From: an uncultured Erysipelotrichaceae bacterium
Lineage (GTDB): Bacteria > Bacillota_I > Bacilli_A > RF39 > UBA660
DNA: 64,000 nucleotides
Direction: 5' to 3'
Assembly: GCA_948439995.1 (NCBI GenBank)
Contig: CAOJNP010000002.1
Coordinates: 316-64,315, forward strand
Position numbers and translations under genes: made by a program. Under the pieces are notes generated by a model. It saw only the letters and a program-made list of their open reading frames with translations, did no database searches and had not been told where the DNA came from. Below, piece by piece: positions 2,704 to 12,703 of this stretch; the first letter of the stretch is position 1, and each line of letters starts with the position of its first letter.

Positions 2704-2789
2704 ATTTGTCACCTTATTCATTATAACATACCATTTTATTTGACGAAAGTAGCAAGCATTTTTTATAATAAAAGTAAGGAATGATTTAC

Positions 2790-3701
2790 ATGAATGAGAG
2801 TCGAAAAGAGAATTTAGAACATGAAATGAATCAATATTTAAATTATTTACAATTTGAACGAAAATTATCCAAAAATACGATTTCATCTTATTTTTATGAT
2901 TTACTCGTTTTTAAAAATTATTTGGATCAAAATAATAAAACTTCACTAACTTGTTTTACAACATTGTTAGAAGATTTTTTAAAAACTATGGAAGAAAAGA
3001 GTCCTACTACAAGATCTCATTATTTAACGGTTTTAAAATCATATTATCAATTTTTAATAGAAGAGGGGTTAGTGAAGGAAAATCCTTGTGATTTTCTTTT
3101 AAGACCGAAGATGATTCAAAGACTTCCTAAATATTTAACCATAGAAGAAGTTGATTCTCTTTTAAATATTGAGCTTCGAAGTGCATACGATTATCGAAAT
3201 AAAGCAATGTTAGAACTTTTATATGCAACTGGAATGCGTATTAGTGAATTAGTTCATTTAAAAATTCAAGATCTTGATTTTCAAGAAGATTTTGTTCATA
3301 TATTTGGTAAAGGGAATAAAACAAGAATTGTTCCTATCAATGATACTTCAAAAAAATATCTTCTACTTTATTATCATGATCATCGTCCTTCACTTTTAAA
3401 AAATTCCTCTTCTGATTATTTTTTTATTAATAATCGAAAAGGAAAACTGTCTCGTCAAGGCTTTTTTAAAATGCTAAAAGCTCTATGTTATGAAAAAAAT
3501 ATAAAAAAAGATGTTTCTCCTCATGTCTTGCGTCATTCTTTTGCAACTCATTTATTGAACAATGGAGCGAATTTAAGAGTTGTTCAGGAATTACTTGGGC
3601 ATTCAGATATTTCTACAACCCAAATTTATACTCATATTTCTAATGAAAAGATTAAAAAAGATTATCATTATCATCCACGTAATAAAAAAGAAGAAAATTA
3701 A
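2790..3701 (+). CDS. xerD: tyrosine site-specific recombinase XerD/XerC family
   Basis: C-terminal catalytic box HVLRHSFATHLLNNGANLRVVQELLGHSDISTTQIYTHI with the R..H..R..Y tetrad. N-terminal core-binding domain (YLQFERKLSKNTISSY). ATG 2790 is preferred over 2781 because of RBS spacing. Divergent from rarA. Confidence 0.75.
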   Translation: MNESRKENLEHEMNQYLNYLQFERKLSKNTISSYFYDLLVFKNYLDQNNKTSLTCFTTLLEDFLKTMEEKSPTTRSHYLTVLKSYYQFLIEEGLVKENPCDFLLRPKMIQRLPKYLTIEEVDSLLNIELRSAYDYRNKAMLELLYATGMRISELVHLKIQDLDFQEDFVHIFGKGNKTRIVPINDTSKKYLLLYYHDHRPSLLKNSSSDYFFINNRKGKLSRQGFFKMLKALCYEKNIKKDVSPHVLRHSFATHLLNNGANLRVVQELLGHSDISTTQIYTHISNEKIKKDYHYHPRNKKEEN

Positions 3702-4005: not shown

Positions 4006-4251
4006 TTAGTTACTTTTTAATTTTTGAATTGTTTTCATTATGGTTTTATTGTCAATATTTTTTGTTTTATACCATCCACATTCTGTCATTTTTGTATAAA
4101 CTTCATATTGCATTTTTAAAATTTCTTCTAAGCAACTTTTTAAAATAGAATGTACTTTTTTATTACTGGCTTCTTCGGTTCCATGAACATACACTTCTGC
4201 TGTTCCCTTTAATAATAGTAGGACATTTTCCATAATTAGCTTATCATTCAT
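4006..4251 (-). CDS. small CotF-like protein, second of pair
   Basis: 81 aa, translationally coupled to the upstream 68-aa ORF. Helical and charged with conserved aromatics (EVYVHGTEEASN...YEVYTKMTECGWY), consistent with a Coat_F second half. Confidence 0.3.
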   Translation of the reverse strand: MNDKLIMENVLLLLKGTAEVYVHGTEEASNKKVHSILKSCLEEILKMQYEVYTKMTECGWYKTKNIDNKTIMKTIQKLKSN

Positions 4252-4450
4252 TTTCTATTCCCTCCATTATTTCCATAAGTTTCTTTTCCATAACAGTATG
4301 TTTTTTGGCAATTTTTTTTAAAAATGATGCTAAATTTTTATCTTGAACATTATTACTAAAATCTTGTAGTAACGATACTAAATTTTGTTCATGTCCAATC
4401 GCATCTTCCATATAAAGTAGTTCTTTTTGTGTCATTTTATTCCTCCTCAT
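4244..4450 (-). CDS. small CotF-like (spore coat protein F domain) protein
   Basis: 68 aa with a strong RBS GAGGAGG. Its pattern MTQKELLYMEDAIGHEQNL...NLASFL resembles the Coat_F family (YraD/YraE-like pairs in Bacillus). It overlaps the next ORF by 8 nt, which suggests translational coupling. Confidence 0.35.
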   Translation of the reverse strand: MRRNKMTQKELLYMEDAIGHEQNLVSLLQDFSNNVQDKNLASFLKKIAKKHTVMEKKLMEIMEGIENE

Positions 4451-4553
4451 TCTTTTATTATTATCATAATCTTTTTATTTAAACCTAAAAAAATAATTAT
4501 TTTGAAATGAAATAATTAAGTTTAGCATTTCATAGAATGTAGTAGGTGAGAGT

Positions 4554-5309
4554 ATGAATATTTTAGGACCTTTTCTTGTTTCTACTATAGCAGGATTATC
4601 TACTGTACTTGGATCATTGGTTATATTTTTTCATTGGAAGAAGGAGAATATTAATAAATTTATTACTTTTAGTTTGAGCTTGTCTTTGGCTATTATGATA
4701 GGGGTATCTATAACAGAATTAATTCCTGAATCTACTTTTTTTATTATCACGGATTACAGACTTGCAAAAGGAATTTTTATTTGTTGTCTTTCTTTTTTAG
4801 TAGGTATTGTTTTAATTTATTGGTTGAATCAAAAAATAAATGGAAAATCACTTCTACAAAAAGATTTATATAAATTAGGAATTTTATCTATGCTTGCTTT
4901 GATGCTTCATAATTTACCAGAAGGAATTGCAACGTTTATGAGTGCTTATCAGGATATGAATTTAGGAATAAAATTAGGTGTAGCAATTATGCTACATAAC
5001 ATTCCAGAAGGAATAAGTATTGCTGTGCCTATCTATTATGCAACGAAAAATAAAAAAAATGCTATTTTAAAAACTTTTATTTCTGGCTTAGCGGAACCTT
5101 TGGGTGCATTTCTAGCCTTTCTATTTTTATCTAAATATATCACGAACACACTAATTAGTATCGTTCTATTATTTGTAGCAGGTATTATGATTACTCTTTC
5201 CATTCAAAAATTGTTTCCAGAAGCTTTGAAATATAAAGAAAACAAATTTATTTGGATTGGACTTGGAGTAGGAGTGGGCCTTACTATAATAAATCATTTT
5301 ATATTGTAA
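4554..5309 (+). CDS. zupT: ZIP family metal (zinc) transporter
   Basis: Two signature HNxPEG motifs (LHNLPEGIATF and LHNIPEGISIAV) and about 8 TM helices in 251 aa. RBS GGTGAGAG. Confidence 0.7.
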   Translation: MNILGPFLVSTIAGLSTVLGSLVIFFHWKKENINKFITFSLSLSLAIMIGVSITELIPESTFFIITDYRLAKGIFICCLSFLVGIVLIYWLNQKINGKSLLQKDLYKLGILSMLALMLHNLPEGIATFMSAYQDMNLGIKLGVAIMLHNIPEGISIAVPIYYATKNKKNAILKTFISGLAEPLGAFLAFLFLSKYITNTLISIVLLFVAGIMITLSIQKLFPEALKYKENKFIWIGLGVGVGLTIINHFIL

Positions 5310-5352
5310 ATGATTTTTTTATTTGATAAGATAAGTAAAACATGGAGTAAAT

Positions 5353-5811
5353 ATGAAAAAAGAAAAATTAAATGTCATTGATTTTTTACAGAAAAATACT
5401 GGTTGGATTGTTACTTTAATTGGTAGTGGTTTAGCAGTCTTTTCTAGTATTTTTGTTTTAATCACTACCTTTGAAAATAAATTAAAAAGTATTTATTATC
5501 ACGTGGATTTTTTATTTTATAAAAATTCTTTCAATTTTTATCAACTTATATTATATTTTCTTTTTATTTTAATTTGTTGGCAAGTTGTATTTTCATTAAA
5601 GAAAGTTATACTATTTGTTTATGATAAATTGATCAATAAGAAAAATATTATTTTTCCTAAGCTTGATTTATTATTTTCCATTCCTTTTTTTCTTCTTATT
5701 TTAGTTCTTTTATTTATTGATTGGTTGCTAAGTTTTTATTTATTATTTTATTTTCTATTATTTAATTGTTCACTTTTTTTTGAAATTTTTAAATATAGAT
5801 ATAAAATCTGA
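5353..5811 (+). CDS. small polytopic membrane protein (hypothetical)
   Basis: RBS GGAG 8 nt before the ATG. About 4 predicted TM helices. No recognisable motif. Confidence 0.45.
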   Translation: MKKEKLNVIDFLQKNTGWIVTLIGSGLAVFSSIFVLITTFENKLKSIYYHVDFLFYKNSFNFYQLILYFLFILICWQVVFSLKKVILFVYDKLINKKNIIFPKLDLLFSIPFFLLILVLLFIDWLLSFYLLFYFLLFNCSLFFEIFKYRYKI

Positions 5812-6121
5812 TATTAAGGAAATTAATATAGTTGAAGAGTGTGTTAATTTTGTGAAAATATTATTATTCTTTTCAATAGTTGAAATGTTTTTCTGCTTTG
5901 TTAAAGTTACTTGTAATTTATATAATAAATCTGATTATTATATTATAAGACAAGATGATCAACTTGAAGTTGTTGTCGAAACTTACTCAGATTACTTTAT
6001 AACTAAAAAAGCACAAATTGATGGTAACAAATTAATTATTATGAAAAATTCGCAAAGCATGAAATCTACTTTTGATACAATTGTAACTAAAGAAACTTTT
6101 GAAGATATTATTTTAAAATAA
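5780..6121 (+). CDS. doubtful ORF (TTG start, no RBS)
   Basis: Open frame of 113 aa with protein-like composition, but the only start is TTG without an SD. It could be a pseudogene or non-coding plasmid-origin DNA. Confidence 0.2.
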   Translation: MKFLNIDIKSDIKEINIVEECVNFVKILLFFSIVEMFFCFVKVTCNLYNKSDYYIIRQDDQLEVVVETYSDYFITKKAQIDGNKLIIMKNSQSMKSTFDTIVTKETFEDIILK

Positions 6122-6149
6122 TGATTAAATATTTTGCTAATATTTTAGT

Positions 6150-6173
6150 TTAACATAATGTATATTATGTTAA
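6150..6173. repeat. perfect 10-bp inverted repeat TTAACATAAT-gtat-ATTATGTTAA
   Basis: Read directly from the sequence. It lies 4 nt downstream of the rep stop codon (minus strand) and 29 nt downstream of ORF 5780..6121. Confidence 0.6.
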
Positions 6174-6177
6174 CTCT

Positions 6178-6744
6178 TTAATATATTGAATTCCAATCAA
6201 CTTCTGTATGATATCTTTTACTACAGATATCTGCATTATGTTCTTTTACTACATCTCTTAAATAACTGTAATATCTTATGAAATAATTCCATATACCATT
6301 TTGGTTTGCAAATTTTCCAACTTGTGACATTTTCACATAATCTGGTTGTGAATGTATATATTCTTGTATACTCATTGCATGGTCACCACCTGGTATTTCA
6401 TCTGTTACCAATTCTCTAAATCGTTTTAATAATTTCTCTGAATTACTTTTTACATCTTCTACATCATATTGGTATTTATTATCATCTTTGAAGTGAATCA
6501 AATATTTTAATGAACCATTAAAGCTCTTTTTAATGGGTTCTATCATGTTTTCTGCAACCCCTACTCTCTTTGATAGGGCAGATATGGTACACGCAGTTTT
6601 GAGCTTTATAACAAAGTGATAATGTGGTTTCTTGAGTTCTCCTTCTTCTGTTACGTCTTGATCATGTCTTATATAGATCACTTCCTTTTGTTCTAGTAGA
6701 TTTAGCATCTGTCTATCAAAGTTTTCATCATCTTCATAGATCAC
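6178..6744 (-). CDS. RepB-like rolling-circle replication initiator (Rep_2 / pMV158 family HUH endonuclease)
   Basis: RHDQD...KKPHYHFVIKL matches the pMV158 RepB metal-binding motif HDKD...KAHYHVLY (HUH). The downstream SLKYLIHFKDDNKYQYD aligns with the RepB catalytic-Tyr region MYLYLTHESKD...VYD. The gene starts at GTG with no convincing SD and an in-frame stop 10 codons upstream, so it may be degenerate. Confidence 0.65.
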   Translation of the reverse strand: MIYEDDENFDRQMLNLLEQKEVIYIRHDQDVTEEGELKKPHYHFVIKLKTACTISALSKRVGVAENMIEPIKKSFNGSLKYLIHFKDDNKYQYDVEDVKSNSEKLLKRFRELVTDEIPGGDHAMSIQEYIHSQPDYVKMSQVGKFANQNGIWNYFIRYYSYLRDVVKEHNADICSKRYHTEVDWNSIY

Positions 6745-6787
6745 ACACAGATAATAGACGTAGCCTATTTTTTAAATAGTATAATAT

Positions 6788-6811
6788 AAAAAAAGAAGAG
6801 TTTTACTCTTC
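6788..6811 (-). terminator. rho-independent terminator after the HTH regulator gene
   Basis: Stem GAAGAG-tttta-CTCTTC, followed on the minus strand by 7 T residues. Confidence 0.6.
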
Positions 6812-6825
6812 AATGTTTCAGAAAA

Positions 6826-7602
6826 TTAAACTTTTCTAGATTGTATTTCTGCAATTTTTTCAAATACTTCGGCAGCATTACTTTCATTAATTTCAGTATA
6901 ATTTAATTCTTTTAATGCCTGAATTTTAATAGTATTTAATTGTTGTGTTCGACTTAATTTTTCTTCATTTTTTTGTTCAATTTCTTGAACAAAACGTCTA
7001 TGACTTTCTGCTAATTTACTACGACTTGCTCCTCCATTATTATATAATGTTAATGCAGAATATAAAATGCCTTCAAATATAAACTGTTTATCTTCTTGAA
7101 ATTTATATTCTTCTGGATTCGTAAATCCAGTTGTTTTTGACATATATCCAAAGATATATTTGATTTCAGGAACGTTATCAATTGATTGTAACATATGGTA
7201 TAAATACAAAGCTGCATATCGATTTTCATCATGTTTATTATCTTCTAATAATTTTTCTTTTAAAAGATATGTAATATCTGCTAAAAGTGTTTGATCTTCT
7301 TTACTTAATCCTTTTAAATCAAAATAACTATCTAAATCTGATGTATTTTTTACTCCTTGATTTAAACGATTTTCTACACTCATTAAATAATCAGTAGTTA
7401 CTTTAATTCCATTTAAAGTTCCTTCATCTCCATCATCGATTTCCAAAAGTTTAAAAAGTAATAACTTTTTTTCTTTGGGCCATTTATTAATATCGTCTAA
7501 TTCTAAATAATTATAGACCATTTGTCTCGATACTCCTAAGTACTTTGCTAATCGTACTTTCGAGATACCTAATTCTTGTAATAATTCATTTAATCTGTTC
7601 AT
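6826..7602 (-). CDS. XRE-family HTH transcriptional regulator with about 190-aa C-terminal domain
   Basis: N-terminal HTH LQELGISKVRLAKYLGVSRQMVYNYLE (Cro/C1-type). RBS GAGGGTAGGG. The C-terminal helical domain is not recognised. Confidence 0.7.
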   Translation of the reverse strand: MNRLNELLQELGISKVRLAKYLGVSRQMVYNYLELDDINKWPKEKKLLLFKLLEIDDGDEGTLNGIKVTTDYLMSVENRLNQGVKNTSDLDSYFDLKGLSKEDQTLLADITYLLKEKLLEDNKHDENRYAALYLYHMLQSIDNVPEIKYIFGYMSKTTGFTNPEEYKFQEDKQFIFEGILYSALTLYNNGGASRSKLAESHRRFVQEIEQKNEEKLSRTQQLNTIKIQALKELNYTEINESNAAEVFEKIAEIQSRKV

Positions 7603-7611
7603 TTAATCCCT

Positions 7612-7680
7612 ACCCTCTTATTATTTACATGTTAATTATAGCATTTAACACTTTTTTGTCAAGTGTAAAGAGGTGTAAAT
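7612..7680 (-). promoter_or_regulatory. sigma-A promoter TTGACA-N16-TATAAT with overlapping inverted repeat ACACTTGACAAAAAAGTGT
   Basis: On the minus strand it reads cacTTGACAaaaaagtgttaaatgcTATAATtaac...AAGAGGGTAGGGATTAAATG. The IR arms ACACTT/AAGTGT bracket the -35. This is a probable autoregulatory operator. Confidence 0.55.
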
Positions 7681-7698
7681 ATTTTTATTTTTCATTTT

Positions 7699-8817
7699 TT
7701 AAGAAAGATACCATAGTTTTTTTCCATTTTTTCCCACATTTTTAATGATTCCACTCCCAATGCATTCCTCTTCTAAGTAGAGAACACAAAATTGTCCAGG
7801 TGTTACAGCTTTGACACCTTCTGGATATGATACCTTTATTTCATTGTTGTTTAGATATTCTAATTTTACTGGATAATCTTCTCCACGATAACGAAATTTT
7901 GCTGTACATTGACTAGGATTTTTAGTACTGATTAAATTAACGGATTCTAAAGTACACTCTGTGCTGATTAAAAATTCGTTGCTTTCTCCAAATGCAACAT
8001 AAAGAATATTTTTTTCAACATTTTTTCCACATACATAATGTCTTTTTTGATCTCCTGAAAGCCCTACATTTTTTCTTTGGCCAATTGTATAATTCATTAA
8101 CCCATTATGAGTTCCAATGATTTCATTTGTTTCTACATTTATTATGTTTCCAGGATTTGGTTTTAAATAATTTTGAATAAATTTTTGATAGTGTCTTTCT
8201 CCTATAAAGCAAATTCCTGTTGAATCTTTTTTCTTAGCTACATTTAAATTTTGTTCTTCTGCAATTGTTCTTACCTCTGGTTTTGTTAAATGCCCAATAG
8301 GAAACATGACATCTTTTAATTGTTCTGATGATAATTGGGCTAAAAAATAAGTTTGATCTTTATTAGAGTCAATTCCGCGTAATAGTTTTGTTCCTTCTAG
8401 TCTTGCATAATGTCCAGTTGCAATTTTATTCGCGCCTAATTTTTTGGCTTCTTTTTTAAATAAATCAAATTTAATATATTTGTTACATAATAAATCGGGA
8501 TTCGGTGTTCTTCCTTTTTTTAGTTCTTCTAAAAAATAAGTAAAGACATAATCCCAATATTCTTTAATAAAATCAACACGATGGAGAGGTATTTCTAATA
8601 AGTTACACAATTCCAATGCATCGTTGTAATCTTGTTCTTGGGGACAAATATCATGATTTAAAGTTGGATTACCACTAATGTCATTGTTTAGGGTAGCATC
8701 CCAATTTCTCATAAATAAGCCTTCCACTTCATAGCCTTGTTTTTTTAATAAGTATGCGGATACAGCGCTATCTACTCCACCAGAAATTCCAACTATTACT
8801 TTTTCCATCAAAGTCAC
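7699..8817 (-). CDS. mnmA: tRNA-specific 2-thiouridylase MnmA
   Basis: PP-loop VIVGISGGVDSAV and the catalytic Cys motifs of MnmA. The true start is probably MEKVIVG, 3 codons in. Confidence 0.9.
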   Translation of the reverse strand: MTLMEKVIVGISGGVDSAVSAYLLKKQGYEVEGLFMRNWDATLNNDISGNPTLNHDICPQEQDYNDALELCNLLEIPLHRVDFIKEYWDYVFTYFLEELKKGRTPNPDLLCNKYIKFDLFKKEAKKLGANKIATGHYARLEGTKLLRGIDSNKDQTYFLAQLSSEQLKDVMFPIGHLTKPEVRTIAEEQNLNVAKKKDSTGICFIGERHYQKFIQNYLKPNPGNIINVETNEIIGTHNGLMNYTIGQRKNVGLSGDQKRHYVCGKNVEKNILYVAFGESNEFLISTECTLESVNLISTKNPSQCTAKFRYRGEDYPVKLEYLNNNEIKVSYPEGVKAVTPGQFCVLYLEEECIGSGIIKNVGKNGKKLWYLS

Positions 8818-8855
8818 TTCCTAGTTGATATTATATCAAAAAATAGTAGTAATAT

Positions 8856-9434
8856 CTAGCTCAGTAAAAATCCAAAATAGCGGATTAATTTTATTCCTAC
8901 TAAGTCTAAAAATAAATCATAACAAAGTAAAAGTAAAATTAATAAAATACAATTAAGTGTAATATGAAAAATATAATCTTTTTGATTTTTTTTGTATATA
9001 ATCCATCTCATGATACTTTTTCCAATTCTTATAAGTTTGGAAAGAAAAATTCCAAATATTAATAGAAAAAATAATCGTGTTATGATGAAAAAGATTAACA
9101 TATATAATAAACCATTCCATTGATAATTGGTAATAAATAAAGTCAGACAAAAACCAAAAGAAATTCCTTCATAAAAGATGTAACCCACAGCTAAGGGAAT
9201 TCCGATTAAGAAAAAAGTTGATATTAATAAAATTGAAAAAATAGCAAAATGAGTAATACTAAAATGAGTTGCATTTTCAGCAAGACTTAATGCATAATTG
9301 GAAATTGTATTTTGAAAGGAATTACGTGATAACATGCCAAAGTAAATTCCTACAGCAAATCCAAATGCTAGAATAATTGATAAAAAGATCCATAAGTTTT
9401 TATGTTTTGATAAGCTTGTCCATATTTTTTTCAT
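8856..9434 (-). CDS. spoIIM: SpoIIM-like membrane protein (stage II sporulation protein M family, DUF95)
   Basis: 192 aa with 5 TM helices and a SpoIIM-like N-terminal pattern. In Bacillus, spoIIM lies near xerD (ripX), which fits this neighbourhood. No motif-level certainty. Confidence 0.4.
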   Translation of the reverse strand: MKKIWTSLSKHKNLWIFLSIILAFGFAVGIYFGMLSRNSFQNTISNYALSLAENATHFSITHFAIFSILLISTFFLIGIPLAVGYIFYEGISFGFCLTLFITNYQWNGLLYMLIFFIITRLFFLLIFGIFLSKLIRIGKSIMRWIIYKKNQKDYIFHITLNCILLILLLLCYDLFLDLVGIKLIRYFGFLLS

Positions 9435-10457: not shown

Positions 10458-11624
10458 CTATTTTTTTCTAAAATAAGTTACTAAACTTTCTATTTTTAAA
10501 ATTTCTTTTTTATCTATGTTATTTATTGTAATATAAAAGGAATCATTACTTTCTTTTTTATATACGTTTTCACCTTCTTTGATTTCATATGTGTAATCTG
10601 CTCGGAATGATAAGTAAATATTTCCTTCTTCTAGCATTTTGATATTTGTGAGTTTAATTTCATTGATTTGAAATTTTGTTAGTCCAGTGTTTTCTAACTC
10701 TTTTTTGAATTTATCATATGTATTTTTTAATTCTTCTATTTTATATATACTATTTAAAGATTGAAACTCTTTTTTTTCAATTGCTCCTAAATAGATGGTT
10801 TCGATTACATCTTTTCCTAATTTTTCCATTTCATCTGTCAATTCTTGGGATGCATCTTTTAGATTAAAGTGATATGTGTATTCTTTGTTTTTTATAGTAA
10901 TCTTTTTTTCTAAACTCATACCATTTTCTAATATTATTTTTAATGGATAGGTTCCTTGAAAAATCAAAGGTATTTTGTAACAATCATATCCTTTTTTTAG
11001 TTCTTCTTTTTCTAAATATTCTTCTAAATTTTGCTCCATTAAAAAGGCTTTTGCTCCAGTTGGTAAATAAATTAATACATCACTTAGTGTTTTGATATTT
11101 GTTTGAATAATTTCCCAATTTGTAAATAAAATCAATCTATTTTTTTCTTTTTTTTCTAAAACATAATCTTTTTCATAAGTAAAATTATGATTTTCCGTTT
11201 TAAAGCTTACATGACAAATTGCTTGGTTTTTGTTCTTTTTCATTTCACATCCTGTTACTTTAAAGTCCGTCATTTTAAATTCATTTAAATCAGGATAAAC
11301 TTTCGAAAAAATTTCTTTGTTGGTAAATTTAGATTCTTCAATTTTTAAGTCTGCTAAAAGATTATCGTAGTTTTTGTTTTCCCAATTTTTTAAATAGTTA
11401 TGAATTGCATTATCTGGAGAATTAAAGTATTTTAATTCTAAGAAGAATAAAAATACAAATCCAATAATACATAAAATAGCAAGAATGATTTTGTTTTCTT
11501 GAGATAATTCTTTTTTCTTTTTTTCTACGGTTATATTGATTGCTGTTTCTTTTAATTTATTGCCACAATGTTCACAAAAGATGGCATCTTCATCTATTTT
11601 TTTTCCACAGTTTTCACAATACAT
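10458..11624 (-). CDS. zinc-ribbon / single-TM / extracellular-domain protein (hypothetical)
   Basis: N-terminal CENCGKKIDEDAIFCEHCGNKL is a classic zinc_ribbon_2. One TM helix, then a ~300-aa extracytoplasmic domain. The gene is 5 nt upstream of the preceding gene, so the two are probably an operon. Confidence 0.5.
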   Translation of the reverse strand: MYCENCGKKIDEDAIFCEHCGNKLKETAINITVEKKKKELSQENKIILAILCIIGFVFLFFLELKYFNSPDNAIHNYLKNWENKNYDNLLADLKIEESKFTNKEIFSKVYPDLNEFKMTDFKVTGCEMKKNKNQAICHVSFKTENHNFTYEKDYVLEKKEKNRLILFTNWEIIQTNIKTLSDVLIYLPTGAKAFLMEQNLEEYLEKEELKKGYDCYKIPLIFQGTYPLKIILENGMSLEKKITIKNKEYTYHFNLKDASQELTDEMEKLGKDVIETIYLGAIEKKEFQSLNSIYKIEELKNTYDKFKKELENTGLTKFQINEIKLTNIKMLEEGNIYLSFRADYTYEIKEGENVYKKESNDSFYITINNIDKKEILKIESLVTYFRKK

Positions 11625-11722: not shown

Positions 11723-12703
11723 TTATCTTTCGCCTTCTTTTAGCATCGTTGTAATAAAAATTCCGTAACCATTTTTTACATTATCTACAATCGCATGAGT
11801 GACTGCTCCAATGATTTTACCATTTTGAATAATGGGACTTCCACTCATTCCTTGAATTACTCCTCCTGTTTCTTTTAAGAGTCGTTCATCTGTTATTTCA
11901 AATGTAATATTTTTAATGTCCGCTGAATTGTTTATGTTCGTAATTTCTATGTTGTACTCACCTATTTGATTATCTGTTAAAACTGTATAAATTGTAGCAG
12001 GACCATTAGTAATTTCTTCTGGATTTCCTACTTGAAATATTTTTCCATTTGGTATTTGTGCAGTATAATCGCCAAATACTCCATATAAAGTATTTTTCTT
12101 TATTTTTCCATAGATTTGGTTAAAATTTAAATTGGCATTTTTTTCTCCAACGGTTCCATCGGTACTTTTAATGATTTTTGATACTTCACTATCAAATATA
12201 GTTCCTGTTTTTACTTCAATTCTTTTATTGGATGAACTTTCTAAAATTTCATGTCCTAATGTTCCAAATATTTTGGTACCTGGATCGATGTAAGTTAATG
12301 TACCTATTCCACTAATTCCATCTTTGACATAAAGTCCTGTTTTATAAACTCCATCAATATTTTTAAGAGTTAATTCCGATTCTATTGTTTTATCTTCTCT
12401 TTTTATAGTTAATATGATCTTATTTTGATCTAAATATTTATCAATTGCATTGGTTAATTCTTCAATGGAAGAAACTTCTTTTTTATTTACTTTCGTAATG
12501 ATATCTCCAACTCTTATTTCAGGTGTACCTTTTTGATATTCTCCATCTACTTTATAAAAGCCAATTACCATTACACCATTTGAATCAATATGAATTCCAA
12601 TATTTTCTCCACCAACTATGATTTGATCAGAATAGGCAAAAACCATAACTGGTGAAAGTAAAATAGTTAGATTCACTAAAAATAATAATAATTTCTTTTT
12701 CAC
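11723..12703 (-). CDS. spoIVB: SpoIVB signalling serine peptidase (S55)
   Basis: Nearly identical to the B. subtilis SpoIVB core: ITDERLLKETGGVIQGMSGSPIIQNGKIIGAVTHA (catalytic Ser). Also has the PDZ region and the GIGTLTY...GTLGH catalytic His. Confidence 0.88.
   Translation of the reverse strand: MKKKLLLFLVNLTILLSPVMVFAYSDQIIVGGENIGIHIDSNGVMVIGFYKVDGEYQKGTPEIRVGDIITKVNKKEVSSIEELTNAIDKYLDQNKIILTIKREDKTIESELTLKNIDGVYKTGLYVKDGISGIGTLTYIDPGTKIFGTLGHEILESSSNKRIEVKTGTIFDSEVSKIIKSTDGTVGEKNANLNFNQIYGKIKKNTLYGVFGDYTAQIPNGKIFQVGNPEEITNGPATIYTVLTDNQIGEYNIEITNINNSADIKNITFEITDERLLKETGGVIQGMSGSPIIQNGKIIGAVTHAIVDNVKNGYGIFITTMLKEGER

What the first reader, a model, noticed from the sequence alone, without database searches (positions are those of the whole stretch)
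5310..7700. Small islet with RepB-like rolling-circle initiator and XRE regulator wedged between zupT and mnmA
A 188-aa protein carries the pMV158-RepB-type metal-binding motif (RHDQD...KKPHYHFVIKL) and a Tyr-containing region (SLKYLIHFKDD). It sits next to an HTH_XRE regulator that has a consensus promoter and an operator-like inverted repeat. Alongside are a small membrane protein, a dubious TTG-start ORF and a perfect 10-bp hairpin. This is the content of an integrated RCR plasmid, integrative-mobilizable element or PICI-like satellite, but no integrase or relaxase is present. The rep gene starts at GTG with no SD, and an in-frame stop lies 10 codons upstream. It may be a decaying element, or a domesticated regulator/Rep pair with a new role (for example phage interference). 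It is the clearest non-core insertion in the window.
Basis: partly seen in the sequence, partly recalled or inferred. Interest (0 to 1): 0.6.

Follow-up and report, generated by a model that had tools for sequence, protein, structure and literature searches.

The report
Filamentous-phage rep remnant beside chromosomal dif
The "islet" is the chromosome's dimer-resolution site (dif) at the replication terminus, with the worn-down replication gene of a filamentous phage that once integrated there using the host's own Xer recombinase. The neighbouring regulator is an ordinary core gene of the host.

Summary
The 188-aa ORF is a real pMV158-RepB-type HUH initiator (Pfam PF01719, E 8e-18), with all metal ligands and the catalytic Tyr intact. 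It lacks the first ~10 codons, the start codon, the ribosome-binding site and nearly all of its replication origin.

Full-length relatives (50-89% identical) sit in 4.5-6 kb Zot-encoding filamentous-phage genomes. One is a free circular GenBank inovirus. Eight are prophages in related genomes, all at this same locus. These prophages are bounded by direct dif-like repeats and carry no integrase, which is the signature of an IMEX (a mobile element that integrates using host Xer).

It lies where gene orientation and GC skew converge, 2.4 kb from xerD. Same-species contigs diverge from the window exactly inside the dif central region and continue into phage DNA.

The 258-aa HTH gene is not part of any islet. 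It is conserved at 76-93% identity next to mnmA in at least 469 species-level genomes. The two small ORFs are one gene split by a frameshift.

Rep fragments anchored at dif recur in six other species in progressively shorter forms, so decay is the best reading. Verdict: an eroded phage remnant at dif, a new member of a known kind. Xer-exploiting inoviruses appear undescribed in Bacillota.

The parts
2781..3701 (+). xerD, the host tyrosine recombinase (context, not part of the remnant)
   Evidence: NCBIfam TIGR02225 XerD, 330.5 bits against a cut-off of 329.6. Pfam Phage_integrase plus SAM_1. The zip-xerD synteny is conserved in about 70 related genomes.
4554..5309 (+). ZIP-family metal transporter (zupT-like), a core flank gene
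   Evidence: Pfam PF02535, E 1.4e-22. It is convergent with the HTH gene in related genomes.
5353..6121 (+). The frameshift is in the T8 run at 5774-5781.
   Evidence: Deleting one T gives a continuous 255-aa ORF that is colinear with the 266-aa gene found between zip and dif in L011 and L037. There is no Pfam, PHROG or PADLOC hit.
6148..6175 (.). Chromosomal dif site: GTTTAACATAA (6148-6158), central TGTATA (6159-6164), TTATGTTAACT (6165-6175).
   Evidence: 20 contiguous bases are identical to E. coli dif, and the XerD-type arm matches B. subtilis dif (sequences from PMC3025954). One canonical site, ACTTCCTATAATATATATTATGTTAACC, occupies this syntenic position in empty-site relatives. The site is unique in the window, with 0.05 expected by chance. 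Gene orientation and GC skew converge here.
6178..6744 (-). 5'-truncated rep: a RepB/pMV158-type HUH initiator remnant of a filamentous phage. Its stop codon lies 2 nt from the dif arm.
   Evidence: PF01719, E 8e-18, profile positions 24-114 of 121. Homologues are 199-205 aa and begin M..KRNYNYLCVIYEDD. A family profile hits RepB 3dkx at E 4e-7, with H27, D30, H41, H43 and Y81 aligned to RepB H39, D42, H55, H57 and Y99.
6751..6768 (-). Residual fragment of the phage replication origin (ATAGGCTACGTCTATTAT, the loop of the nick-site hairpin). Both stem arms, the iterons, the SD, the ATG and codons 1 to about 8 are missing.
   Evidence: The conserved origin AAATTGCATAGGGCTACGTCTATAATGCAATTT plus ATGTAATTT repeats lies upstream of full-length reps in L011, L013, L015-L019, L037 and L100. 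The phage origins fold with z between -3.1 and -4.2; the window fragment does not form the hairpin.
6795..6811 (-). Intrinsic terminator of the HTH gene, separating it from the rep remnant
   Evidence: Terminator scan: 7-bp stem followed by a T run.
6826..7602 (-). 258-aa core HTH protein of unknown function. It is not part of the mobile DNA.
   Evidence: 76-93% identical in at least 469 species-level genomes, always just downstream of mnmA. Homologues at 33-38% identity are still next to mnmA. The Pfam HTH_3 hit is below the cut-off. Only the N-terminal ~50-70 aa aligned to XRE-type HTH proteins, and none of those matches was significant (E >= 0.3).
7635..7662 (-). Consensus promoter of the HTH gene (TTGACA, 16-nt spacer, TG-TATAAT)
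   Evidence: 12 of 12 consensus positions. The promoter and the flanking TTTACAC / GTGTTAA / ATGTAAA motifs are conserved across species.
7699..8817 (-). mnmA, a core flank gene
   Evidence: Pfam tRNA_Me_trans, E 6e-78.

Best explanation
Window 6148-6768 holds the chromosomal dif site together with the eroded end of a filamentous (inovirus-like) prophage.

In this clade of gut Bacilli, small Zot-encoding phages replicate by rolling circle with a RepB/pMV158-type HUH initiator. That initiator would nick a GCTACG/TC-like sequence in a hairpin loop just upstream of rep. The phage attachment site lies immediately after the rep stop codon. It consists of a dif central region and a XerD-type arm, plus a degenerate second arm.

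The phages carry no integrase. They integrate at dif, most likely through the host Xer recombinases, so the phage rep ends up abutting the regenerated functional dif. dif cannot be lost, so later deletions eat into the prophage from the far side and leave a rep fragment anchored at dif.

In this genome two deletions did the damage. One removed everything upstream of the origin loop. The other, about 65-75 bp, removed the right arm of the origin hairpin, the iterons, the SD, the ATG and roughly the first 8 codons. The remaining ORF has no evident way of being expressed and no usable origin, so it is most likely inert. The dif beside it is still used: other strains of the same species carry a phage inserted exactly there.

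Shown: the family assignment, the truncation, the identity and position of dif, the dif-flanked prophages, the strain polymorphism and the erosion series. Inferred: Xer dependence, the exact nick position, the order of events, and non-expression.
For: Rep identity and truncation:
- PF01719 hit.
- Alignment to 199-205 aa homologues.
- The RepB structure family is matched with the catalytic residues aligned.

Phage origin:
- Homologues lie in modules containing Zot, an HTH repressor and small ORFs.
- The best annotated hit is the circular inovirus PQ006156, whose Rep is 71% identical to the L011 Rep. It has the same origin upstream of rep and an attP right after the rep stop.
- Plasmid Reps reach at most 31% identity.

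dif and terminus:
- Canonical Firmicutes-type dif sits between the HTH gene and zip in empty-site genomes.
- The site is unique in the window.
- 43 of 44 large ORFs to the right of the site are on the minus strand.
- GC skew flips at the locus: +0.151 on the left and -0.056 on the right across relatives, and +0.117 / -0.102 in L001.
- xerD lies 2.4 kb away.

IMEX architecture:
- Eight species carry 2.6-6.0 kb elements at this site, bounded by direct repeats of 'central region + TTATGTTAAC'. Only the site nearest the HTH gene has a full second arm. L031 is a tandem array with a 4661-bp period.
- No integrase hit lies inside any of these elements.

Live site:
- Contigs L003, L007 and L008 are 100% identical to window 6163-6900, break inside the dif central region, and continue into DNA 97.6% identical to the left end of the L037 prophage.

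Decay:
- Rep fragments keep their dif-proximal 3' end while losing progressively more of the 5' end: L037 copy 2 keeps profile positions 4-196, the window about 10-196, L036 104-196, L027 122-197 and L026 148-189. L034 (56-192, with dif inside the rep 3' coding end) and L070 (63-120, eroded at both ends, about 130 nt from dif) are further remnants.
- The window keeps only 18 nt of the origin, and it no longer folds.
Against: - The ORF is otherwise intact. Changes specific to the window lineage are 8 synonymous to 3 non-synonymous. So the truncation is either recent or the ORF is still constrained.
- A GTG created by a lineage-specific GTA>GTG change could serve as a start codon.
- In this genome the rep-dif block has the opposite orientation, relative to the flanks, to that in L011 and L037. 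I explain this only by inference, from the two-fold symmetry of the dif arms.
- Xer dependence is inferred from architecture alone.
- No XerC gene was looked for, because only 64 kb of the genome is available.
- The right-hand junction of the occupied (L003-type) allele was not recovered.
Confidence: 0.85

Rival explanations
1. Domesticated truncated Rep. The N-terminally shortened protein is still made (from the GTG, or by read-through from the HTH gene). It interferes with incoming related phages, for example by forming mixed, inactive oligomers through the C-terminal domain or by occupying their origin. This would be a superinfection-exclusion function kept next to the phage landing site.
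For: - The 188 codons are intact and retain all catalytic residues.
- Window-lineage substitutions are mostly synonymous, 8 to 3.
- Related phages do integrate next to it in the same species.
- L037 also keeps a near-full-length 5'-truncated copy.
Against: - There is no SD and no ATG, and a terminator lies between the HTH gene and rep.
- Half of the first beta-strand of the origin-binding domain is missing.
- Fragments in other species are cut at arbitrary points down to about 40 residues, as expected for decay rather than for a conserved product.
- Both L037 copies have lost the RHDQD metal-binding motif through a 10-bp deletion.
- There is no convincing match to a defence family in PADLOC; the only hit is a weak PbeC match for rep, E 0.0014.
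- The synonymous excess is equally explained by recent inactivation. The clearly dead L037 copy shows 11 to 1.
Confidence: 0.08
2. One reading: an integrated rolling-circle plasmid, integrative-mobilizable element or PICI-like satellite made of Rep, an XRE regulator and small ORFs, which has lost its integrase or relaxase.
For: The Rep belongs to the family first described on pMV158-type plasmids. An HTH gene with a strong promoter lies next to it.
Against: - The HTH gene is core and is present in hundreds of genomes without rep.
- The small ORFs are one frameshifted gene, which also lies outside the prophage boundaries in L011.
- The nearest Reps are in Zot-encoding phages and reach 50-89% identity, against at most 31% for plasmids.
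- There is no relaxase, and no att repeats flank the 2.4 kb.
Confidence: 0.03
3. A still-mobile mini-element (rep + origin + att), a satellite that helper filamentous phages replicate and package, comparable to RS1 or TLC in Vibrio.
For: The order 'origin fragment - rep - att' matches the phage replication/integration module. In the occupied allele and in L037 the fragment lies directly upstream of a complete prophage. That is the arrangement which allows hybrid phage genomes to be produced from tandem CTX/RS1 arrays (PMC4246890).
Against: - Only one Xer-type site exists in the window, so the fragment cannot excise.
- The origin hairpin and the iterons are gone.
- In L037 copy 2 the origin is entirely absent.
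Confidence: 0.03

Closest known systems
IMEX prophages and their remnants at dif in Vibrio cholerae (CTXphi, RS1, VGJphi, TLCphi)
   Same: These are also filamentous phages without an integrase that integrate at the chromosomal dif site, form tandem arrays and leave partial copies next to dif. attP mimics dif, and the prophage is bounded by a functional dif and a hybrid site (PMC4246890; compare).
   Different: - The host is a low-GC Bacillota lineage, not a proteobacterium.
- The initiator is RepB/pMV158-type (PF01719), not RstA/pII-type.
- attP keeps the central region and the arm equivalent to the XerD arm and has a degenerate other arm. This is the mirror image of TLCphi, whose XerD arm is the degenerate one.
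- Xer dependence was not tested here.
RepB of plasmid pMV158 (PDB 3dkx/3dky) and its double-strand origin
   Same: - HUH fold family, with Mn ligands H39, D42, H55 and H57 and catalytic Y99 aligned.
- Origin built as a hairpin with the nick sequence in its loop, followed by direct repeats. The pMV158 nick sequence is TACTACG/AC; the phage loop reads GGGCTACGTCTA, followed by ATGTAATTT repeats.
   Different: - About 25-30% identity only; a single-sequence search of the PDB finds nothing.
- The Rep is carried by phages, not plasmids.
- The window copy lacks the N-terminal strand and the origin.
Bajarodino virus 28 (GenBank PQ006156, Inoviridae, circular, 4902 nt, rodent faeces)
   Same: - Its Rep is 71% identical to the L011 prophage Rep.
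- It has the same origin hairpin plus three iterons.
- The att-like arm TTAACATAA follows the rep stop directly.
- The first gene after att is the same 49-aa ORF.
- It encodes Zot and a repressor.
   Different: It is a free, complete genome. The window has only the truncated rep. The host and the integration site of the GenBank virus are not stated in the record.
dif-integrating inoviruses of Xanthomonas and Ralstonia (XacF1, Cf1c, RSM-type)
   Same: Integration at dif by the host XerC/D. attP lies inside or next to a phage gene, and integration/excision is dynamic (PMC5666396, listed).
   Different: Proteobacterial hosts and different replication proteins. There, attP lies in a regulator gene, not at the rep 3' end.

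Membership tests
Rep_OBD / pMV158 RepB-type HUH rolling-circle initiators (PF01719) | Profile match above the curated threshold | tested here: met
   65.2 bits against a cut-off of 24.6, E 8.1e-18. The family profile hits RepB 3dkx at E 4e-7.
Rep_OBD / pMV158 RepB-type HUH rolling-circle initiators (PF01719) | Metal ligands (H, D, HUH) and catalytic Tyr | tested here: met
   H27, D30, H41, H43 and Y81 of the 188-aa ORF align with RepB H39, D42, H55, H57 and Y99. These columns are invariant in 20 homologues.
Rep_OBD / pMV158 RepB-type HUH rolling-circle initiators (PF01719) | Complete N-terminal strand and a usable translation start | tested here: not met
   Profile positions 1-23 are unmatched. 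Homologues begin M..KRNYNYLCV, whereas the window has a stop followed by KIGYVYYLCV, with no ATG and no SD.
Rep_OBD / pMV158 RepB-type HUH rolling-circle initiators (PF01719) | Cognate origin: nick-site hairpin plus direct repeats next to the gene | tested here: not met
   Present upstream of the full-length relatives. Only 18 nt of the loop remain in the window, and they do not form the hairpin.
Rep_OBD / pMV158 RepB-type HUH rolling-circle initiators (PF01719) | Site-specific nicking and joining activity | not testable with these tools
   Needs purified protein and oligonucleotide substrates.
[quoted passage not shown] | Located at the chromosomal dif site | tested here: met
   The rep stop codon is 2 nt from the dif arm. 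dif is identified by sequence, synteny, uniqueness and skew/orientation convergence.
[quoted passage not shown] | Element bounded by dif and a dif-like hybrid site in direct orientation | tested here: not met
   The window has a single site, as expected for a remnant. The feature is met in relatives L011, L022, L029, L031, L037, L044, L062 and L073.
[quoted passage not shown] | No recombinase of its own | tested here: met
   No Phage_integrase Pfam hit or tblastn hit lies between the att sites of L011, L029, L031 or L037. Related phages at other loci do carry an integrase.
[quoted passage not shown] | Crossover inside the dif central region | tested here: met
   Same-species contigs are identical to the window from 6163 rightwards and diverge at 6162, inside TGTATA. 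They then continue into phage DNA.
[quoted passage not shown] | Integration catalysed by host XerC/XerD | not testable with these tools
   xerD is present at 2781-3701. Catalysis needs genetics or in vitro recombination.
Filamentous phages (Tubulavirales / inovirus-like) | Zot/pI-type morphogenesis ATPase and small coat-protein genes | tested here: not met
   None in the window. Present in the related prophages and in PQ006156. The window holds a fragment, not a phage.
Chromosomal dif site | 28-bp 11-6-11 site resembling the experimentally defined dif sites | tested here: met
   GTTTAACATAA TGTATA TTATGTTAACT, compared with E. coli GGTGCGCATAA TGTATA TTATGTTAAAT and B. subtilis ACTTCCTAGAA TATATA TTATGTAAACT.
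Chromosomal dif site | Single copy, at the replication terminus | tested here: inconclusive
   Unique in 64 kb, and skew and gene orientation converge here. The whole genome is not available.
PICI-like satellites / integrative-mobilizable elements | Own integrase, att repeats, and a primase/rep with packaging or mobilisation genes | tested here: not met
   No integrase, relaxase or att repeats within or around 5310-7700.
XRE-family transcriptional regulators (the 258-aa protein) | HTH_3-type domain above threshold | tested here: inconclusive
   HTH_3 scores 21.1 bits against a cut-off of 23. In the AF2 model (pLDDT 85.6), only the N-terminal ~50-70 aa aligned to XRE-type HTH proteins (Aca1, HigA2, SinR, Cro), all non-significant. 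The best overall E-value was 0.3; the XRE-type hits had E >= 1.9, with probabilities 0.15-0.72. The rest of the protein has no match.

The most novel reading that the evidence does not exclude
The remnant is the footprint of an undescribed class of Xer-exploiting filamentous phages in Bacillota. These phages use RepB/pMV158-type initiators. Their attP lies at (or inside) the rep 3' end and keeps only the dif central region and the XerD-type arm, the mirror image of TLCphi. They can insert in either orientation, because dif in this clade is almost two-fold symmetric. They repeatedly rewrite one half of the host's dif. If so, the Xer step must start differently from the three known IMEX classes, and dif-adjacent rep fragments become a marker for locating termini and phage history in uncultured gut Bacilli.
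Probability: 0.45. Interest if true: 0.65.

Novelty: new member of a known kind. Interest (0 to 1): 0.45.

Why it matters
- It turns an apparent orphan Rep/regulator islet into three well-defined things: the chromosome's dif site, a decayed phage end, and a core gene. Annotation of this and related genomes can be corrected accordingly.
- It locates the replication terminus of a large group of uncultured gut Bacilli known mostly from fragmented metagenome-assembled genomes (most of the 80 loci compared here come from MAGs).
- It shows that small filamentous phages known only as faecal metagenome circles have these bacteria as hosts and integrate at dif.
- All the dif-integrating inoviruses I found in the literature are proteobacterial. 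This gives a testable case for how Xer recombination is hijacked in Bacillota when attP has only one good arm.

Tried and rejected
- A single-sequence search of solved structures with Rep and with the HTH protein gave no hits. Only the family profile reached RepB.
- The first AlphaFold model of the HTH protein, from a shallow alignment, was unusable (pLDDT 56). A second, with more diverse homologues, reached 85.6. Foldseek against the PDB then found only weak N-terminal XRE-type HTH matches and nothing for the rest. The function of the HTH protein stays unknown.
- PADLOC gave no convincing defence-family match for the four ORFs; the only hit was a weak PbeC match for rep, E 0.0014. Rfam gave none in 4300-9000.
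- PHROGs gave nothing useful for Rep.
- A scan of IMG/VR with the Rep alignment returned only six distant contigs and added nothing.
- I looked for a second (hybrid) att site between the rep 5' end and the HTH terminator (6770-6794). I found only AT-rich similarity that I do not regard as significant; the motif search finds a single site.
- I looked for flanking direct repeats around the 2.4 kb and found none of note.
- I considered a Xer-mediated or homologous inversion to explain the reversed rep-dif block. I could not find inverted sites to support it and prefer either-orientation integration at a symmetric dif, but this remains inference.
- The substitution count cannot separate 'recently dead' from 'still constrained'.
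- Literature searches for IMEX or dif-integrating inoviruses in Bacillota found none. Absence from this library is not proof of absence.

Full report
WHAT IS IN THE SEQUENCE

Between the ZIP transporter gene (4554-5309, +) and mnmA (7699-8817, -), the ORF list shows four ORFs:
- a 152-aa ORF (5353-5811, +);
- an overlapping 113-aa TTG ORF (5780-6121, +);
- a 188-aa GTG ORF (6178-6744, -);
- a 258-aa ORF (6826-7602, -).

The 188-aa ORF matches Pfam PF01719 (Rep_OBD, the former Rep_2) at E 8.1e-18, 65.2 bits against a cut-off of 24.6. It covers only profile positions 24-114 of 121. The GTG has no SD, and an in-frame TAA lies 10 codons upstream. The 258-aa protein gives only sub-threshold HTH hits (HTH_3, 21.1 bits against 23). 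It has a perfect sigma-70 promoter with an extended -10, and an intrinsic terminator at 6811-6795 separates it from the Rep ORF.

THE REP IS GENUINE BUT TRUNCATED

- The 85 database homologues are mostly 186-233 aa, and the close ones are 197-205 aa.
- They begin M-x-x-K-R-N-Y-N-Y-L-C-V-I-Y-E-D-D. The window reads stop-K-I-G-Y-V-Y-Y-L-C-V-I-Y-E-D-D. The start codon and about the first 8-10 codons have been replaced.
- A profile of the family hits RepB of pMV158 (3dkx) at E 4e-7. The window's H27, D30, H41, H43 and Y81 align with RepB's Mn ligands H39, D42, H55 and H57 and its catalytic Y99. The roles of these residues are taken from PMC5030251.

THE HTH GENE IS CORE

A scan of one genome per species found at least 469 genomes encoding this protein. 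The best 80 are 76-93% identical. They are uncultured gut Bacilli or 'Tenericutes' MAGs, Coprobacillus sp. CAG:605, Ca. Coprovivens and Ca. Caccenecus.

In nearly all of these loci the order is mnmA > HTH > < zip < xerD. Only 10 of the 80 loci contain any Rep_OBD segment. Homologues at 33-38% identity still sit directly downstream of mnmA. The family is narrow, with only 346 clusters at 50% identity among 1.84 billion proteins, and it has no Pfam domain on record. The HTH gene therefore does not belong to a mobile islet.

THE HAIRPIN IS dif

In genomes where the HTH and zip genes are only 77-170 bp apart, the spacer holds ACTTCCTATAATATATATTATGTTAACC (L056, L082, L094; L072 has one mismatch). 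This is essentially the experimentally defined B. subtilis dif, ACTTCCTAGAATATATATTATGTAAACT (PMC3025954). About 65 of the 80 loci have one such site, and it lies in this gap.

The window's version is GTTTAACATAA-TGTATA-TTATGTTAACT (6148-6175). It shares 20 contiguous bases with E. coli dif. It is unique in the 64 kb, with 0.05 matches expected by chance.

Evidence that this is the replication terminus:
- 43 of the 44 ORFs of at least 180 aa to the right of the site are on the minus strand.
- GC skew changes sign at the locus in relatives: +0.151 on the left and -0.056 on the right, with a sign flip in 23 of 34 loci. In L001 the values are +0.117 and -0.102.
- The 306-aa gene at 2781-3701 is XerD (TIGR02225, 330.5 bits against 329.6).

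WHERE THE REP COMES FROM

Full-length homologues lie in 4.5-6 kb modules. These contain an HTH_19 repressor, many small ORFs, a Zot/pI-like ATPase (PF05707), a protein of ~560-620 aa, an 89-aa protein and Rep.

The best annotated matches are circular faecal inovirus genomes. Bajarodino virus 28 (PQ006156, 4902 nt) encodes Zot and a repressor, and its Rep is 71% identical to the Rep of locus L011. Plasmid Reps reach at most 31% identity.

L011 (Rep 63% identical) carries such a module at exactly this locus. It is bounded by CTTTCTTTCAA-TGTATA-TTATGTTAACT and AATTTAACATAA-TGTATA-TTATGTTAACT in direct orientation, 6.0 kb apart, with no integrase inside.

The same architecture is seen in L022, L029, L031 (a tandem array, period 4661 bp), L037, L044, L062 and L073. 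In each case a full dif lies next to the HTH gene. The distal site shares the central region and the XerD-type arm but has an unrelated other arm. This is the IMEX signature described for Vibrio phages (PMC4246890). Related phages integrated at other loci carry their own tyrosine integrase instead.

ORIGIN AND attP

Upstream of every full-length rep there is a conserved element. This holds even between Reps that are each only 50-63% identical to the window's Rep. The element reads AAATTGCATAGGGCTACGTCTATAATGCAATTT, followed by two or three ATGTAATTT repeats. It folds as an 11-13 bp hairpin with a 15-16 nt loop (z between -3.1 and -4.2). This parallels the pMV158 origin, which has the nick sequence TACTACG/AC in the IR-I loop plus direct repeats (PMC5030251, PMC1851628).

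In the free phage genome, the rep stop codon is followed directly by TTAACATAA-CATACA-GTGCTTAGAAAG and then a 49-aa ORF. attP therefore sits at the rep 3' end.

The window retains only ATAGGCTACGTCTATTAT (6751-6768). Compared with L013 and L037, a deletion of about 65-75 bp between short TAT/TATAAT repeats removed the right stem arm, the iterons, the SD, the ATG and about the first 8 codons. A second breakpoint replaced the left stem arm with DNA adjoining the HTH terminator. The fragment no longer forms the hairpin.

THE SITE IS STILL IN USE

Contigs L003, L007 and L008 come from the same species: all flanking proteins are 100% identical. They are 100% identical to window 6163-6900 and diverge at 6162, inside the dif central region. 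Beyond that point they are 97.6% identical to the left end of the L037 prophage, which includes the 49-aa ORF.

The window is therefore the unoccupied allele, and those contigs are a phage-occupied allele of the form rep fragment - hybrid site - phage. L037 shows the same layout in full: zip > 266-aa gene > truncated rep (cut at codon 3) > hybrid site > prophage ending in a rep with a full-length 5' end > dif < HTH.

DECAY, NOT DOMESTICATION

Rep fragments beside dif recur in other species. In most they keep the dif-proximal 3' end and lose more and more of the 5' end. The profile positions retained are:
- L037 copy 2: 4-196
- window: about 10-196
- L034: 56-192 (dif embedded in the rep 3' coding end)
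- L036: 104-196
- L027: 122-197
- L026: 148-189
- L070: 63-120 (eroded at both ends, about 130 nt from dif)

This is what is expected if dif must be kept and deletions come in from the far side. Both L037 copies also carry the same 10-bp deletion that removes RHDQD.

Against simple decay, the window ORF is otherwise intact, and its lineage-specific changes are 8 synonymous to 3 non-synonymous. The demonstrably dead L037 copy shows 11 to 1, however, so this only says that inactivation is recent. PADLOC gave no convincing defence-family match; the only hit was a weak PbeC match for rep, E 0.0014.

ORIENTATION

In the window, rep is co-directional with the HTH gene. In L011, L020 and L037 it is convergent with it.

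On the HTH-sense strand, the window reads rep > TTAACATAA-TATACA-TTATGTTAAAC > zip side. The zip-proximal arm is therefore still a XerD-type arm, as everywhere else, and the phage-linked arm occupies the other position. In this subclade the two arms are near-perfect inverted copies, and the ancestral central region TATATA is itself palindromic. I infer that phages can insert in either orientation. This is inference, not demonstration.

A different Rep subtype (L034, P0070-like) has dif embedded in its 3' coding end in the other orientation. This shows that the geometry varies among these phages.

THE TWO SMALL ORFS

Removing one T from the T8 run at 5774-5781 fuses them into a 255-aa membrane protein. 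This is colinear with the 266-aa gene that lies between zip and the outer att site in L011, which places it outside the prophage. The L037 copy has an internal stop. The gene is lineage-specific, is not detectably of phage origin, and is probably a pseudogene here.

COMPARISON WITH WHAT IS KNOWN, AND NOVELTY

In function, this is the IMEX lifestyle of CTXphi, VGJphi, TLCphi and the Xanthomonas/Ralstonia inoviruses. It also shows RS1-like partial copies and tandem arrays.

It differs in three ways:
- the host phylum;
- the initiator family;
- attP retains the central region and the XerD-type arm, with a degenerate other arm. TLCphi is the reverse.

The arm names rest on analogy with E. coli and B. 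subtilis dif. In the searched literature every dif-integrating inovirus or IMEX is proteobacterial, and the large inovirus survey does not mention Xer.

The feature in the window itself is an inert-looking remnant, so I file it as a new member of a known kind. The phage group it reveals may deserve 'new variant' status once the recombination chemistry is tested.

CAVEATS

- Only 64 kb of the genome is available.
- XerC was not sought.
- The right junction of the occupied allele was not recovered.
- Xer dependence, the nick position and non-expression are inferred.

Noticed in passing
window 6826-7602 and 7603-7700; loci L020-L099, L107-L110: The 258-aa HTH protein is an uncharacterised, clade-restricted orphan that is more conserved than MnmA (76-93% against 67-91%, apart from one outlier locus). 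It is always the gene just downstream of mnmA and usually the last gene before dif. A homologue only 33% identical (L108) still has a dif-like site about 700 bp downstream. Its conserved promoter carries TTTACAC x2, GTGTTAA and ATGTAAA motifs that resemble the dif arm ATGTTAA. A role at dif or the terminus is possible but untested.
   Followed up: partly
window 5774-5781: A T8 homopolymer frameshift splits a ~255-aa membrane-protein gene into the 152-aa and 113-aa ORFs. The same split is seen in independent assemblies (L001, L002, L004-L006). The L037 orthologue has an internal stop instead.
   Followed up: yes
L037 10881-11434 and 16845-17398: The two rep copies flanking the L037 prophage are 579/581 identical. 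Both carry the same 10-bp deletion that removes the RHDQD metal-binding motif. This points to gene conversion, a very recent duplication, or assembly collapse.
   Followed up: partly
L013/L014, L015-L019 versus L011/L037: Closely related phages (same origin, Rep 50-89% identical) use two integration strategies. Some carry a tyrosine integrase directly after rep and sit at other chromosomal sites. Others have a dif-like attP in that position and sit at dif.
   Followed up: partly
L034 10837-11391; protein P0070: In one Rep subtype the dif-like site lies inside the 3' coding end of rep (...ISDNVCYVNF is encoded by GATAATGTATGTTATGTTAAC). Every integration therefore exchanges the last codons of rep.
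   Followed up: no
L031 9782-19115: A perfect tandem array of two 4661-bp prophages bounded by three att sites. This is the arrangement that lets CTXphi produce virions from the chromosome.
   Followed up: no
L003 about 11010-11055: The contig ends in Illumina adapter sequence (AGATCGGAAGAGCGTCGTGTAGGGAAAGAGTGT). This is an assembly artefact in the public record that truncates the occupied allele.
   Followed up: no
window 4006-4450 and 11723-12703: A pair of CotF-like spore-coat genes and a Peptidase_S55 (SpoIVB-type) gene show that this low-GC (~27%) 'Tenericutes-like' bacterium is probably a spore-former.
   Followed up: no
window 6742-6744: The GTG that opens the 188-aa ORF arose by a lineage-specific GTA>GTG synonymous change in what is an internal Val codon in full-length homologues. 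Five of the eight lineage-specific synonymous changes are A>G at third positions, so this is probably mutational bias and not selection for a start codon.
   Followed up: partly
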